From the NCBI GenBank assembly GCA_016928835.1, contig JAFGJW010000001.1, positions 1-64,000 of the forward strand: DNA of 64,000 bases. Reading direction: 5' to 3'. The first letter of the stretch is position 1. Each line of letters opens with the position of its first letter. Source of the stretch: Candidatus Woesearchaeota archaeon. Lineage in GTDB: Archaea > Nanobdellota > Nanobdellia > Woesearchaeales > GW2011-AR15. Made by a program: the position numbers. Positions 18,001-24,000 of this stretch are shown piece by piece.

Positions 18001-21000
18001 AGGCAATTAGTTGAATGGGCAGAGTCTCAATTAAGCTTGACTGAAGAAGATATCCAGGATTATCTCGATTCAAATAATTATGATGATTGGGCTATTGGAT
18101 ACTGTGATGTGTTTTCAGAAAATGATGAGCAATGTTTTGATGAGGGAAAAATAGGTTTTCTTGAGTCTGGCTTTTTTGCCATGAATTGTCGCCCTTGCCC
18201 TACTACCTGTGCTGAATATAGAAAAGAAGATTTGTGCAATCGTGATCCATGTAATTTGGATTGTGTATGGAATACTCAGCAATGTGTTTCGAAATCCTCA
18301 GTCGCTCTCGACTCTTACACAGTAAGATTCTGCGTTAATCTGGGCTCAACTATTTATGCTTATGAGCAGGCAACAAACCAATATACAGAAAAACCAGTGA
18401 CTCTGAAATTTGCCATATATTTCCCTAATCTTGCCCAGACCTATTGATCATTTTACCAATATATATTGCGTTTTCAAATAAAAGAAAAACTTTAATATAA
18501 GAAAACTTTCTTGAACCAATAGGGGGTGTTTTATGATTAAGGTACCAGTTGAAATAATCTTCGATAAAATTAAGCAGAAGACTAATCTGTCTGATGCTGA
18601 TATTAAGGTTAAAATCAAGAAAAAACTTGACCAGCTTTCAGGTTTAATTAGCGAGGAAGGTGCTGCACATATTGTTGCCAATGAACTCGGAGTGAAATTG
18701 TTTGAGGACATTGGACAACTTCAAATTAAAAATATTCTGCCAGGCATGAGAAATGTAGAGGTTCTTGGCAAAGTCCTTCGCATATATGATATAAGAGAGT
18801 TTGAGACAGAGAATAGAAAAGGCAAGCTCGGATCTTTTGTTATTGGTGATGAAACTGGAGTTATTAGGATTTTGGCATGGAATGACAAATCCCAGATACT
18901 TGAAAAACTTAAACCAGAACAGATTGTTAAAATTGAGAATGGTTATGCCAGAGAAAACAACCGGGGGAAGACCGAGGTACATCTTGGAGACAGAAGCAAG
19001 GTGTTGGTTAATCCTGCTGGAGCTAAAGATATACAAACAGGAGGAAGAAGAAAAAATATTTCTGGGTTGCAGGAAAATGAGGATAATGTTGAGTTGCTGG
19101 GAACAATAGTCCAGGTTTTTGATCCCAGGTATTTTGAGATATGTCCAGAATGCGGAAAAAGAGTTCGAGAAAAAGAAGGGAAATGGGTTTGTGACACACA
19201 CAAAGAGATAGTGCCAAGTTATGCTTATGTACTGAATTTATTTCTTGATGATGGCACAGATAACATCCGAGTTGTTTTGTGGCGAAATCAAGCCCAAAGA
19301 CTTTTACAAAAAACAGATGAAGAAATTGTTGATTATAAAGACAAGTCTTTTGAAGAGATTAAGAATGAACTTCTTGGGAAGATTGTTAAGTTTGTCGGCA
19401 GGACTTCTAAAAATGAGATGTTTGGAAGAATAGAGTTTATTCCACAAATAGTTATTGTGAACCCAGACCCAGAAGAAGAAATAAGACGGTTAGATGAGGA
19501 AGTGAAAAAAGTGATTCAGGAGAAGCCAATGGAAGGATCTGTTGAAGAAGAAAAAGAAGATTATAGAGAGGAAGTTGATGAAGAGCAAGTAGTATCATCA
19601 ACAGAGGAGAATAATGTTCCTAGAGCAGAGAAAACAGATAAGATTGAGCCACAGCAGGCCAGCGATGATGAAGAAGAGAGTTCTACTAATACCGATGAGG
19701 ATGAAGCAGAGGAGGCACAGGACAATCTAGATGAAGAAATCCTCTCCCTTGAAGATTTGGAATCATTAGAGTGAAGAGATAGCACTGGACACACTGGACA
19801 TTCTCGCGTAGGATTAATAAATGAGTTACAATATCTATGGTACTAGCTGAATTAAAGTTCAGCCAACTCCCACCACCAATGTGGTGCTGAAATAAAAACC
19901 GAACAGGAATGGAGGTGAATCGGAATGAAGAACGGAGTTCAGGACGGTAGAAATCTACCTGAAAAAAAATTTAGAGCTGGAGCTGTTACAGCTACAGTCT
20001 GGAAAAATACAAAAGAAAAGAGCGGTTCAATATACGAGTTTAGGACCGTTAGTTTTGAAAGGAGATATAGAGACAACAAAGGCGAGTGGCAGAGCACTAA
20101 TTCTTTGAGATCAAATGATCTGCCTAAAGCAGTACTCGTATTAAATAAAGCTTATGAGTATCTGGCCTTAACTGAGCAAGAGAATGCGTTAGAGGATATC
20201 TGACTTTTTGGTGGTTATTATGACAAGGACAAATGAGAATTCAGCTGATGAAAAAAAGGAATTTGCAATCATGGATTTGCCAGGAGTTGGAGCTGCGACT
20301 GCAGAGAAGCTAGAATTGGCAGGATATAATGATCTTATGTCAATCGCGGTAGCTTCACCAGGAGAATTAGTAGAGACAACTGGTGTTGGAGAGAGCATTG
20401 CTAAGAGGATAATCCAAGCTGCAAGAGCTTCATTAGAGATGGGTTTTGAATCAGGTGATGAGATTTTAAAGAGAAGAGAAAATATCTTGAAGATTAAAAC
20501 GGGTTCAAATAATCTGGATGAATTGCTTGGCGGCGGAATTGAGACAAGTGCAATTACTGAGTGTTTTGGTGAATTTGGTTCTGGCAAGACCCAGATAGCT
20601 TTTGCTCTGGCTGTCATGTCACAGAAGCACGACCCAAGCTCAGTGGTTGTTTTCATTGACACTGAAAATACTTTTAGACCAGAAAGAATTGCGCAATTAG
20701 CAAAGGCTAAAGGACTTAATCCTGATAAGGTCTTGAAAAATGTTAGGGTTGCAAGAGCATACAACAGTGATCACCAGATGTTGCTGGTGGAGAAAATATC
20801 TGACTTAATAAACAAGCAAAAGCTTAATGTAAAGGTTGTGATTGTTGACTCACTTACCTCTCATTTTAGGGCTGAGTTTGTTGGTAGAGGTACGCTTGCT
20901 GAGCGGCAGCAAAAATTGAATAGACATATGCACGACCTCTTAAAACTGGCAGACAGTTATAATACTTGTGTGTATGTGACAAACCAGGTAATGTCTAGGC

Positions 21001-24000
21001 CCGATGTCTTCTTTGGCGATCCAACTGTAGCAATTGGTGGCCATATTGTGGCACATAACTCTACATACAGAGTTTACCTTAGAAAAGGTAAGAAAGGTAG
21101 CAGAGTTGCTAAACTTGTTGATAGTCCTTCTCTGCCTGAAAAAGAAGCTGCCTTTTTTGTGGATGCAAACGGGCTAAGAGACATATAATCTCTTTTTATT
21201 TTTTTTAAATTAACACACACGCTTTCTTTATACCTATTTCTTTCGATAATTTTATAAAGATTTGTCCTTTAAAAAATGTCAGTATGATTGAACTGACAAT
21301 TATTGGCAGAGGAGGACAAGGAGCTAAAACTGCTGCCCAGCTACTAGCAGAAGCTGCAATGGAGACAGGTAAATATGTACAATCTTTTCCAGAGTACGGG
21401 CCTGAGAGAGCGGGGGCACCTGTCAAGGCTTTTACAAGGATTGATGATTCGCTTGTTAGGGTTCACTGTGCTGTTAATAACCCGGATATTGTTGGTGTAA
21501 CAGACCCAACATTATTAAAAGCAGTTAATGTAACAGAAGGTCTTAAACAGAGCGGCATACTTGTAGTTAATACTGAGGATTCTCCGGAGGCTATTAAAAA
21601 AAAACTTAATTTTAATGGTAAAGTATTTACGCTAGATGCAACCAGGATATCTATTGATACAGTTGGAAAAAATTTACCAAACATGCCTATCCTAGGTGCT
21701 ATATTAAAAGCAACTGACATTGTGCCTCTAGATATACTCCGCGAAATGGTCCGTCATAAATTTGAAAAAAAGATTGGTAAGGATTTGACAGATAAAAATA
21801 TACTAGCTATAGAAGAAGGACACAAAGAGGTAAAAAATGCCTGAGCCAAGCTGGAAAGAAATACCAACAGGAGGCCTTATAGTGAAGCCTGGCAATGCAG
21901 ATAACTATAAGACTGGGGGGTGGAGAACATACAGGCCAATTAGAGATCCAAATAAGTGCACAAACTGTCTCCTCTGTTTTATATACTGCCCAGATTCTGC
22001 AATAAAAGTGAAAGATGGAAAGATTAGTCATATTGACTATGATCATTGCAAGGGTTGCTTAATATGTGAAAAAGAGTGTCCTGTAAAAGCTATATCTCAT
22101 AAATCAGAAACAGAAATAAAAGAATAAAAATGAAACTGGCATTATCAGGTAACGAAGCTGCTGCTTATGCGATGAAACATATTAATCCAGATGTTGTTCC
22201 GGCTTTTCCAATAACTCCGCAAACAGAGATTATGCATAACTTTGCCGGATTTGTTGCAGATGGGGAGGTAGATACAGAAATGATTCTTGTAGAATCCGAG
22301 CATAGTGCAATGTCTGCAGCTGTTGGTGCTGCATCTGCAGGTGCAAGAGTAATGACTGCCACCTCTGCAAATGGACTTGCATTAATGTTTGAGATAGTAT
22401 ATATCGCAGCATCAACAAGGTTGCCAATTGTTATGACAGTTGTTAACAGGGCATTATCTGGTCCTATCAACATCCATTGTGACCATTCTGACTCTATGGG
22501 CTGTCGTGACTCAGGCTGGATACAAATATATTCTGAAAATGCACAAGAAGTATATGATAATATCATTATTGGAATGAAATTAGCAGAGGATATGAAGATA
22601 AGGCTTCCGGTAATGGTCTGTCAAGACGGATTTATTACAAGCCATTCAATTGATGTTGTTGAGCCTCTTGAACCTGAGACTGTAAAGAACTTTATTGGAG
22701 AGCACAAAGCCATTTATCCCTTACTTGATGTGGAAAATCCTGTTACATATGGTCCACTTGATCTTTATGATTATTACTTTGAACATAAAAGACAGCAGGT
22801 TGATGCTATGTGGTATGTTAAACCAACACTTAGACAAATATTTGCAGATTTCTCGAAGATTTCTGGCAGGGCTTATGATATTATTGAAAAGTATTTTGTA
22901 GATGATGCTGATCAGGTTATAGTTACTATGAGCAGCACTGCTGGAACCGCAAAGGCGGAAGTAGATGAATTAAGGAAAAAAGGCCAGAAAGCAGGTCTAC
23001 TTAAAATAAAATTGTTTAGGCCCTTCCCTTATGAAGAAGTCAGCGAAGCACTTAAGAACGCTAAGCATATCGCAGTACTTGACAGATCACTTTCATTTGG
23101 AGCAGATGCGCCGCTTTATTCTGAGATCAAGTCTGCTCTTTACAATCAAAATAAAAAAATATGTAGTTATGTTTTTGGCTTAGGGGGGAGAGACATAAAC
23201 TTAGAAGATATTAAAAAAGTATTTAGTGAAATACAGAAACTCGATAATACCTGTCATGATATTAGGTTTATTGGGTTAAGAGATTAAAATGGTAAATATT
23301 AAGGAATTTTCCAGCAGGGAAGAAAGATTGAGCAGCGGACACAGGCTCTGCGGAGGGTGTGGAGCACCGATTATTGCTAGGATGGTCACTAAAGCAACCA
23401 AGGACCCTGTGGTTATTGTGAATGCAACTGGATGCTTAGAGGTTGCCACAACCATCTACCCTTATACTGCATGGAAAGTTCCCTGGATGCACAATGCCTT
23501 TGAGAACGCTGCAGCGACTATTTCAGGTATTGAGACAGCCTTTAGAGCCCTTAAGAAGAAAGGGAAAATAAAAAAAGAAATAAAGTTCATTGCATTCGGT
23601 GGAGATGGTGGCACATATGATATTGGTTTGCAGAGCATGTCAGGTGCTTTTGAGAGGGGGCATAAATTTGTCTATGTCTGTTATGATAACGAAGCCTATA
23701 TGAATACTGGCATTCAGAGAAGCGGTGCTACCCCTTATGGTGCGAGCACTACAACAGCTCCTGCAGGCAAAGTTAAGCAAGGCAAGGAGCAGTTCAGGAA
23801 AGATTTGACAAGCATTGCTGCGGCCCACCATGTGCCTTATGTTGCTCAAGCAGCGCCGTCGGAATGGAATGATTTAATTACTAAAGCAGAAAAAGCTCTA
23901 AATGCAGATGGTCCTGCTTTTCTAAATGTGTTGTCACCATGCCCTAGAGGATGGAGATTCCCAGAAAACTTAACTATTGAGATATCCAAATTAGCCATAA

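What a model noticed while it worked through the whole genome (the two positions that open the first line are those of the whole stretch)
19783..21188. CACTGGACA promoter box defines an SOS-like DNA-damage regulon of Woesearchaeales
A 9-bp box CACT(G/A)GACA about 14 nt upstream of the TATA box (start codon typically 52 nt on) precedes the radA operon (two copies, C11:19783/19792), nreB (C8:306946), the polB2 operon (C8:98899, 98161), a 3'-5' exonuclease (C8:214813), an Orc1 paralog (C8:304938), xerA (C16:96624), a Cas4-like nuclease (C12:12974), a GyrI-like gene (C20:51520) and all three free-standing LAGLIDADG genes. It marks an order-wide DNA-damage regulon; it sits at an activator position and resembles the reverse of a mini-ORB, so the boxed Orc1 paralog g669 or the wHTH protein g1296 are the candidate regulators.
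Evidence so far: Top non-RBS 9-mer in upstream regions; 11 PWM hits versus 0 in reversed controls; sites listed in calls 35, 178. Box+TATA pattern in 79 of 101 Woesearchaeales genomes, reversed control in 2 of 101, only 2 of 31 in a sister order. In 70 loci from relatives the next gene was the radA-leader gene (11), Hef (3), LAGLIDADG (5), Bro-N/KilA (6), xerA (2), and nreB, uvrA, Pol Y, Orc1, SPL-like and HhH radical-SAM, PD-(D/E)XK nucleases; same genes boxed in G014.
(Added by a program. Inside this text positions count along the whole contig: contig position 1 is position 1 of the stretch shown here. "Call 12" and the like, gene names such as g00115 and contig names such as C1 are that model's own, and its searches are not shown. 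The text may have been shortened before it was handed on; [...] marks where a part breaks off. The agent that wrote the report below was given it as the finding of a first reader that could run no searches.)

Follow-up and report, generated by a model that had tools for sequence, protein, structure and literature searches.

The report
Orc1 paralog reads DPANN repair box
A nine-letter DNA signal sits in front of DNA-repair genes in tiny uncultured archaea, and it changes in step with the DNA-reading helix of a spare copy of the replication-starting protein Orc1, which makes that protein the likely switch of a predicted DNA-damage response.

Summary
The box is real. CACT(G/A)GACA lies 14 or 16 bp before TATA at 15 promoters of this genome and in 132 of 151 genomes of the order (backwards control 3 of 151). 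It precedes radA, nre, polB2, uvrA, hef, hjc, xerA and free-standing LAGLIDADG genes. This scan found the box before on other DNA.

New here is the likely regulator. 15 of the 19 'box-less' genomes carry drifted boxes, and the drift tracks the recognition helix of the non-initiator Orc1 paralog (C8:303812-304882). Among 356 columns of 130 orthologs, Gln317 best predicts changes at box bases 4-5 (family-wise 0 of 3000 permutations) and Arg314 best predicts C at base 7 (73 of 3000). A genome of another order, with invariant Arg318 changed to Asp, has a rewired box (AACTTGCAA) before radA and the same gene types. A rival winged-helix protein shows no such change.

Against: 5 boxed draft genomes lack the paralog, several genomes break the code (this one too), and binding, activation and damage induction are untested. 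It works like Sulfolobus Orc1-2, with another operator and possibly a separate origin.

The parts
19783..19791 (+). distal copy of the box CACTGGACA
   Evidence: an upstream partial copy occurs at 43 of 146 sites in relatives at period 7, 8 or 9 (34, 1, 8)
19792..19800 (+). proximal box CACTGGACA, 14 nt before TATA; predicted binding site of the Orc1 paralog (gene outside the window, C8:303812-304882 minus)
   Evidence: spacer 14/15/16 in 115/3/28 of 146 sites; covariation
19805..19812 (+). G+C-rich element CGCGTAGG at the BRE position, fixed to TATA rather than to the box
   Evidence: T at -6 in 0.78 of 18 boxed promoters versus 0.23 of 324 other promoters, which are A-rich there
19815..19822 (+). 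TATA-like box TAATAAAT (one step off the WTWTAA used in genome searches)
19888..19917 (+). conserved 5'-leader motif TGAAAYAARAN, a 2-bp hairpin and the ribosome-binding site; predicted RNA element
   Evidence: stem pairs in 39 of 39 aligned copies (GC/GC 29, CC/GG 7, GG/CC 3); no Rfam family
19925..20203 (+). 92-aa conserved protein of no known family, first gene of the radA operon
   Evidence: (131 of 151 genomes); fold search inconclusive
20208..21188 (+). radA recombinase (ATG at 20220)
   Evidence: Rad51 family, E 1e-84
18533..19774 (+). RPA-like OB-fold gene directly upstream; context, not itself boxed

Best explanation
The box marks promoters of repair, recombination and nuclease genes and is likely bound by the winged-helix domain of a non-initiator Orc1/Cdc6 paralog, which would switch these genes on together, probably after DNA damage. 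Shown: the box, its fixed 14 or 16 bp distance to TATA, the target gene set, and the joint change of box bases with helix residues 314, 317 and (one genome) 318. Inferred: direct binding (about 0.85), activation rather than repression (about 0.75), and damage as the trigger (about 0.8). A likely reading is Arg318 on the invariant CA, Gln317 holding T4-G5, and Lys versus Arg at 314 favouring A versus C at base 7; bound upstream of a non-standard BRE, the protein would help recruit TBP/TFB. Homing endonucleases would carry the box to be made when host recombination is on.
For: Covariation over 356 columns of 130 orthologs against genome-wide box counts: non-Gln317 in 11 of 16 genomes with shifted bases 4-5 versus 6 of 114 others (p 1.5e-8, rank 1); Arg314 in 6 of 12 C7 genomes versus 5 of 118 (p 5.8e-5, rank 1). 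Family-wise permutation 0 of 3000 and 73 of 3000; unchanged when stratified by divergence; after dropping six sister genomes and two unpublished ones 8 of 12 versus 5 of 110 and 4 of 10 versus 4 of 112. The changes recur in separate clades (13 and 9 changes on the tree). Prospective test: 8 of 12 further non-Gln genomes showed shifted or relaxed boxes. Residues 313-325 form the third helix of a winged helix (pLDDT 88); Arg318 aligns with Orc1-1 chain residue 330, which is the guanine-contacting R341 of PMC3089459 by an offset of 11 that also fits R365. G325 (Arg314, Phe317, Asp318): no CACTGGACA in 796 kb, ACTTGCAAG second-best 9-mer before TATA, rewired box at the radA operon, five LAGLIDADG genes and an exonuclease. 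The 3 order genomes with no box all lack the paralog; five paralog-less genomes of other orders have no box at radA. A boxed promoter lies within about 1.5 kb of the paralog gene in 13 of 30 loci, control 0. The other Orc1 sits beside inverted origin boxes and an AT-rich stretch. Precedent: Orc1-2 of Sulfolobus (PMC6061795).
Against: Five boxed genomes lack the paralog (G010, G024, G089, G117, G141; four rechecked by profile); all are drafts of 70-190 contigs, and radA was likewise not found in 3 of 40 genomes searched. The code has exceptions: 4 of 12 non-Gln genomes keep the canonical box; 5 Gln genomes have shifted boxes; this genome (Arg314, Ser297), G050 and G228 keep A7; Lys or Arg at 317 goes with the canonical box in G326, G307, G266. 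The Arg318 link rests on one genome, whose nuclease promoters are near-copies of each other. The paralog's own promoter is boxed in only 8 of 130. Paralog-bearing genomes G173, G227, G161, G210, G261 show no box at radA, and G306, G244 are unclear. In this genome hef, hjc, mutS, endonuclease III and RPA are unboxed, and 3 of 15 sites face a thermosome gene or tiny ORFs.
Confidence: 0.62

Rival explanations
1. The paralog binds the box, but the regulon follows the replication or growth phase (for instance host attachment), not damage.
For: Targets include MCM (4 of 125 downstream ORFs), xerA and an RFC-containing operon; the regulator derives from a replication initiator.
Against: uvrA, nre, spore-photoproduct-lyase-like, repair radical-SAM and B-family polymerase genes are lesion-oriented; RPA, initiator Orc1 and MCM are unboxed in this genome.
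Confidence: 0.14
2. The paralog binds the box as a repressor, released on damage in the manner of LexA.
For: An Orc1 monomer covers more than the 9 bp and could shade the BRE; Orc1-2 also represses some genes (PMC6061795).
Against: The box never overlaps TATA or the start site; the rigid 14 or 16 bp phasing and one orientation suit a contact with the basal machinery.
Confidence: 0.14
3. Another, unidentified factor reads the box, and the paralog's helix covaries by shared ancestry or by binding the same sites for another purpose.
For: Five boxed genomes lack the paralog; only two rival regulators were tested.
Against: The signal peaks at DNA-facing helix positions among 356 columns, recurs in separate clades, and is independent of G+C and overall divergence; the 92-aa wHTH helix is invariant; WYL domains occur in 5 of 151 genomes.
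Confidence: 0.08
4. The sites are secondary replication origins or ends of a mobile cassette spread with LAGLIDADG genes.
For: The box resembles part of the origin-box palindrome (recalled consensus); two C8 sites share an 87-bp cassette at 87% identity.
Against: Single orientation at fixed distance from TATA and start codon; present at the orthologous radA-operon promoter in 28 of 30 loci picked by protein alone; the true origin is elsewhere.
Confidence: 0.02

Closest known systems
Orc1-2 and the DDRE (ANTTTC) regulon of Sulfolobales (PMC6061795, PMC9738581)
   Same: A non-initiator Orc1/Cdc6 protein with AAA+ and winged-helix domains as predicted reader of an asymmetric element upstream of repair-gene promoters; a B-family repair polymerase operon among the targets.
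   Different: Operator CACTGGACA, not ANTTTC; radA operon, uvrA, hef, xerA and homing endonucleases as targets; little autoregulation; both TFBs full-length and unboxed; the profile scores Orc1-1 initiators (170 and 151 bits) far above A. pernix ORC2 and P. aerophilum Cdc6 (55, 65 bits); function tested there, predicted here.
Orc1-1 initiator on origin recognition boxes (PDB 2qby, 2v1u; PMC3089459, PMC12141716)
   Same: Same fold (TM 0.80-0.84), intact Walker A/B, and the QR pair of the recognition helix.
   Different: The wing lacks the arginine and the initiator-specific Gly-Leu is replaced; sites are scattered promoters in one orientation, not an inverted pair around an AT-rich stretch.
Bacterial SOS (LexA) and WYL-domain activators PafBC and DriD (recalled)
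   Same: One operator ties the recombinase, excision repair, a repair polymerase and selfish elements together.
   Different: The operator is not palindromic and lies upstream of the core promoter; WYL domains are rare; LexA was not searched.

Membership tests
Sulfolobales Orc1-2/DDRE regulon | Regulator is an Orc1/Cdc6 protein with AAA+ and winged-helix domains | tested here: met
Sulfolobales Orc1-2/DDRE regulon | Regulator gene is not the origin-linked initiator | tested here: met
   Origin-type boxes flank an AT-rich stretch beside the other Orc1 at C12:37817-38040; non-initiator status itself is inferred
Sulfolobales Orc1-2/DDRE regulon | Operator is ANTTTC | tested here: not met
   versus PMC6061795
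Sulfolobales Orc1-2/DDRE regulon | Regulator belongs to the Orc1-2 clade | tested here: inconclusive
   Profile scores favour Orc1-1; Orc1-2 itself was not available, no tree with it; that ORC2 and P. aerophilum Cdc6 are in that clade is recalled
Sulfolobales Orc1-2/DDRE regulon | Regulator activates its own gene | tested here: not met
   Own promoter boxed in 8 of 130 orthologs, one more by eye (G021)
Sulfolobales Orc1-2/DDRE regulon | Damage-induced, regulator-dependent expression and direct binding | not testable with these tools
   No RNA holder listed; no binding assay
LexA/SOS | Palindromic operator overlapping the core promoter | tested here: not met
   Asymmetric 9-mer, direct repeats, upstream of BRE
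LexA/SOS | Self-cleaving LexA repressor | not tested
   No search for LexA was run
WYL-domain activators (PafBC, DriD) | WYL protein co-occurring with the operator | tested here: not met
   5 of 151 genomes, none in this one
Origin recognition boxes | Inverted pair around an AT-rich stretch next to the initiator gene | tested here: not met
   Not at boxed promoters; met only at C12 beside the canonical Orc1

The most novel reading that the evidence does not exclude
DPANN archaea turned a copy of the Orc1-1 replication initiator into a master activator of an SOS-like response independently of Sulfolobus Orc1-2. Protein and operator have co-evolved through many rewirings that expose an amino-acid-to-base code, and free-standing homing endonucleases have plugged into the circuit.
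Probability: 0.42. Interest if true: 0.86.

Novelty: new variant of a known kind. Interest (0 to 1): 0.77.

Why it matters
Whether archaea outside Sulfolobales have a coordinated damage response, and what runs it, is open; PMC6061795 itself asks whether other Orc1 paralogs do this job. The finding names a regulon, an operator and a candidate regulator in a large uncultured DPANN group. It gives a direct bench test: natural protein-box pairs with swapped specificity that can be assayed with purified protein. It would also assign a function to the second, highly conserved Orc1 of these small genomes and would show homing endonucleases timed to host recombination.

Tried and rejected
WYL regulator: rejected. 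Alternative TFB: two full-length TFBs here, neither boxed, and G325 has the same promoter layout with one TFB. Presence or absence of the paralog against the exact box was uninformative until variant boxes were found. Complex prediction of paralog with TFB gave no verdict. No RNA holder was listed for the locus, so no reads were laid. The leader protein has no Pfam or PDB sequence match, and the fold search on a weak single-sequence model was inconclusive; a PC4-like single-strand binder is a recalled resemblance only. Viral contigs: 12 matches, 6 inside ORFs, close to chance; two (L470, L472) look like real promoters, not followed. A BRE-only pattern in five other-order genomes gave one further box-like site (G310) and was otherwise noise. 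Literature: eight searches listed no paper on this box or regulator; the library lacks most subscription papers, and no supplements were read.
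Full report
1. Observation. The window holds CACTGGACA twice in tandem (19783, 19792), then 14 nt, then TAATAAAT, a leader of about 85 nt, a 92-aa ORF and radA. The genome has 38 exact CACT(G/A)GACA sites. Fifteen stand 14-16 nt before a TATA-like word: 14 and C16:96624. CACTGGACA is the best of all 9-mers in that position (11 of 27 copies, p 5e-16); backwards and complemented controls give 0. 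The genes behind the 15 sites are the radA operon, nreB, two genes of a B-family polymerase operon, an RNase_H_2-type exonuclease, a Cas4-like nuclease followed by RFC, xerA, an Orc1 paralog followed by an alkylation-repair fragment, a GyrI-like gene, three LAGLIDADG genes, two tiny ORFs and, 227 nt away, a thermosome gene.

2. Spread. In 151 genomes of the order, 132 match box-N14-16-WTWTAA and 3 match the backwards control. Several 'Methanosarcinales' loci carry the leader gene, so the label may be wrong; I did not check it. Of 146 sites in 144 loci, 125 had a downstream ORF: leader gene 18, a LAGLIDADG cluster 11, a Bro-N cluster 7, xerA 5, Cas4-like 5, MCM 4, exonuclease 4, Hjc 3, repair radical-SAM 3, uvrA 2, hef 2, and many singletons, 25 of 49 proteins scanned having a Pfam match. 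Picked by protein alone, 28 of 30 leader-gene loci have a box: 23 exact, 4 variant, 1 by eye at 17 nt.

3. Promoter layout. The spacer is 14 in 115, 16 in 28 and 15 in 3 of 146 sites. A G+C-rich element, often CGTGAG, is fixed to TATA at the BRE position and departs from the A-rich BRE of 324 other promoters (the two sets may differ slightly in register). Partial upstream copies at period 7-9 occur in 43 of 146 sites. One orientation, rigid phasing and a non-standard BRE suit an activator; this is inference.

4. The 'box-less' genomes. Of 19 genomes with no exact match, 13 have a variant box at the radA promoter, for example CACTCGACA, CACTTGCCA, CACAGGACA, CACTGGTCA or CATTGGACA (G132 among them is unpublished). 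G001 and G033 have variants elsewhere, G049 is doubtful, and G126, G114 and G040 have none. The variants are genome-wide: G025 and G150 have 7 CACA-type sites each, G001 14 and G137 13 GCCA-type sites. The three empty genomes are among the 8 of 151 that lack the paralog (chance about 1e-4 by hand, kin not independent); the other 5 of those 8 are boxed.

5. The regulator. The genome has two Orc1 genes. The 404-aa one has the canonical TQRR helix and sits beside inverted origin-type boxes around an AT-rich stretch, the layout PMC12141716 describes for an origin. The 356-aa paralog is a core gene of the order (143 of 151), with intact ATPase motifs and a winged helix whose third helix spans 313-325. 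I extracted 130 of the 143 orthologs; the 13 left out were not fetched at that stage, mostly partial or low-ranking hits, and three added later all have Gln317. Arg318 is invariant and Gln317 occurs in 113 of 130. The first five genomes with shifted bases 4-5 all lacked Gln317. I then tested the other 12 non-Gln genomes: G045, G050, G074, G119 and G056 have mainly shifted boxes, G120, G077 and G039 mixed ones, and G070, G072, G086 and G059 canonical ones. Low-count Gln genomes mostly keep T4-G5, with G071 the clearest exception. With genome-wide counts, column 317 ranks first of 356 for shifts at bases 4-5 (11 of 16 versus 6 of 114), column 297 in helix 2 second, and column 314 first for C at base 7 (6 of 12 versus 5 of 118). 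Thresholds for 'shifted' were mine (at least two variant sites, outnumbering canonical ones); stricter ones keep the same top columns. Family-wise permutation gives 0 of 3000 and 73 of 3000; variant genomes are not more diverged or different in G+C; the result survives removal of six sister genomes and the two unpublished ones. The five discovery genomes are inside these counts. On the same 25-26 genomes the 92-aa wHTH reaches at best p 0.006 at non-helix columns and keeps one recognition helix throughout, against p 2e-5 for Gln317. A boxed promoter lies within about 1.5 kb of the paralog gene in 13 of 30 loci, this genome included, control 0.

6. Structural sense. The profile aligns Gln317-Arg318 with Gln329-Arg330 of the 2qby_A sequence. 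An offset of 11 makes this R341, the one base-specific, guanine-contacting residue of Orc1-1 in PMC3089459, and the same offset gives the wing residue R365. Gln with adenine and Arg with guanine are standard major-groove pairings (own knowledge) and fit T4 and C7/C8 read on the opposite strand. No protein-DNA model was built.

7. Beyond the order. In 173 genomes of other orders, 15 match the exact pattern against 6 for the control, and 83 have the paralog. Of the five matches in paralog-less genomes, four lie inside ORFs. In 13 paralog-bearing genomes examined at radA, G310 (Arg314, Gln317) has CACCCGCCA like G071, G320 and G153 (His, Ser at 317) have CACTTGACA, G291 has CACACGACA, G325 a new box, G275, G306 and G244 are unclear, and five show none; five paralog-less genomes show none. 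G325 has Asp at 318. In 796 of about 804 kb it has no CACTGGACA; ACTTGCAAG is the second-best 9-mer before TATA (5 of 9, p 7e-7). The tandem AAATTGC-AACTTGCAA and two one-base variants stand 16 nt before TATA at nine places: the radA operon, five LAGLIDADG genes, an exonuclease, an unknown ORF and one site without ORF. C at base 7 and a pyrimidine at base 5 were expected from Arg314 and Phe317; C-to-A at bases 1 and 8 goes with Asp318. Its xerA, hef, MCM and hjc are unboxed. Counter-examples: G326, G307, G266 and G228 keep the canonical box with Lys or Arg at 317, G228 also with Arg314.

8. What is not shown. Binding, direction of control, the damage signal and induction are untested. Autoregulation is rare (8 of 130), so the trigger would be post-translational, as proposed for Orc1-2 (PMC6061795). 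Five boxed draft genomes lack the paralog.

9. Comparison. It works like the Orc1-2 regulon of Sulfolobales but fails the operator and autoregulation tests, so it is not filed as a member. Whether the two regulators share an origin is open; scores lean to descent from Orc1-1. Papers seen: PMC6061795 (passages and part 1 of 2 of the Discussion), PMC9738581, PMC3089459, PMC12141716 and PMC7544198 (passages); others only as search listings; no supplements. Eight searches listed no description of this box or regulator. Three earlier notes of this scan report the same box and regulon in other genomes and, in the lines shown, name no regulator.

10. Verdict. Real, widespread operator; regulon very likely; regulator likely the Orc1 paralog. 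New variant of a known kind, interest 0.77.

Noticed in passing
window 19888-19917 and loci L189-L262, L399-L407: Conserved leader motif before the first gene of the radA operon with a fully covarying 2-bp stem next to the ribosome-binding site (39 of 39 copies); two copies in G291 and seemingly in G310, G325, G275; long inserted stems in G025, G150, G007. No Rfam family. Could be a translational operator.
   Followed up: partly
window 19925-20203: 92-aa protein found in 131 of 151 genomes of the order, with look-alikes in Planctomycetota and phages; no family or solved relative.
   Followed up: partly
G000 C8:305698-306892 (L007): nreB is split by a frameshift at a run of A near codon 35; assembly error, decay or slippage not decided.
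   Followed up: no
G000 C12:37817-38040: Likely replication origin: inverted origin-type boxes with G-runs around an AT-rich stretch, upstream of canonical orc1 and two large genes (543 and 1167 aa, probably DNA polymerase D; not scanned).
   Followed up: partly
G000 C8:82586-82672 and C8:98132-98218: 87-bp two-box cassette shared at 87% identity, each followed by a G+C-rich hairpin element with further copies on C4, C7, C8, C9, C11; the 'thermosome' box may drive this element instead.
   Followed up: partly
G000 C9:46456 (-) and C8:147087 (-): One-mismatch boxes with good spacing (CACTCGACA before a 116-aa ORF, CACAGGACA without a near ORF); probable weaker members.
   Followed up: no
G000 C13:2865-3791 and C19:18931-19857: Two full-length TFB genes, 58% identical; neither boxed.
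   Followed up: partly
L114, L106, L178, L153, L110: Boxes also precede a TnpB/Cas12f-like gene, a restriction endonuclease, a DNA methylase, a MazE-like antitoxin and an AAA-DUF4143 gene in single genomes.
   Followed up: no
L470, L472 (viral contigs): Two viral contigs carry a full box-BRE-TATA promoter outside long ORFs; possible damage-responsive viruses of these archaea.
   Followed up: no
22 of 146 sites in L015-L188 (approximately; 125 had an ORF): Boxed promoters with no downstream ORF of 45 aa; some are at contig ends, others may drive non-coding RNAs.
   Followed up: no
L490, L491 (G326, G307): In a small-genome family of another order the single canonical box precedes a conserved 60-aa ORF of no known family, not radA.
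   Followed up: partly
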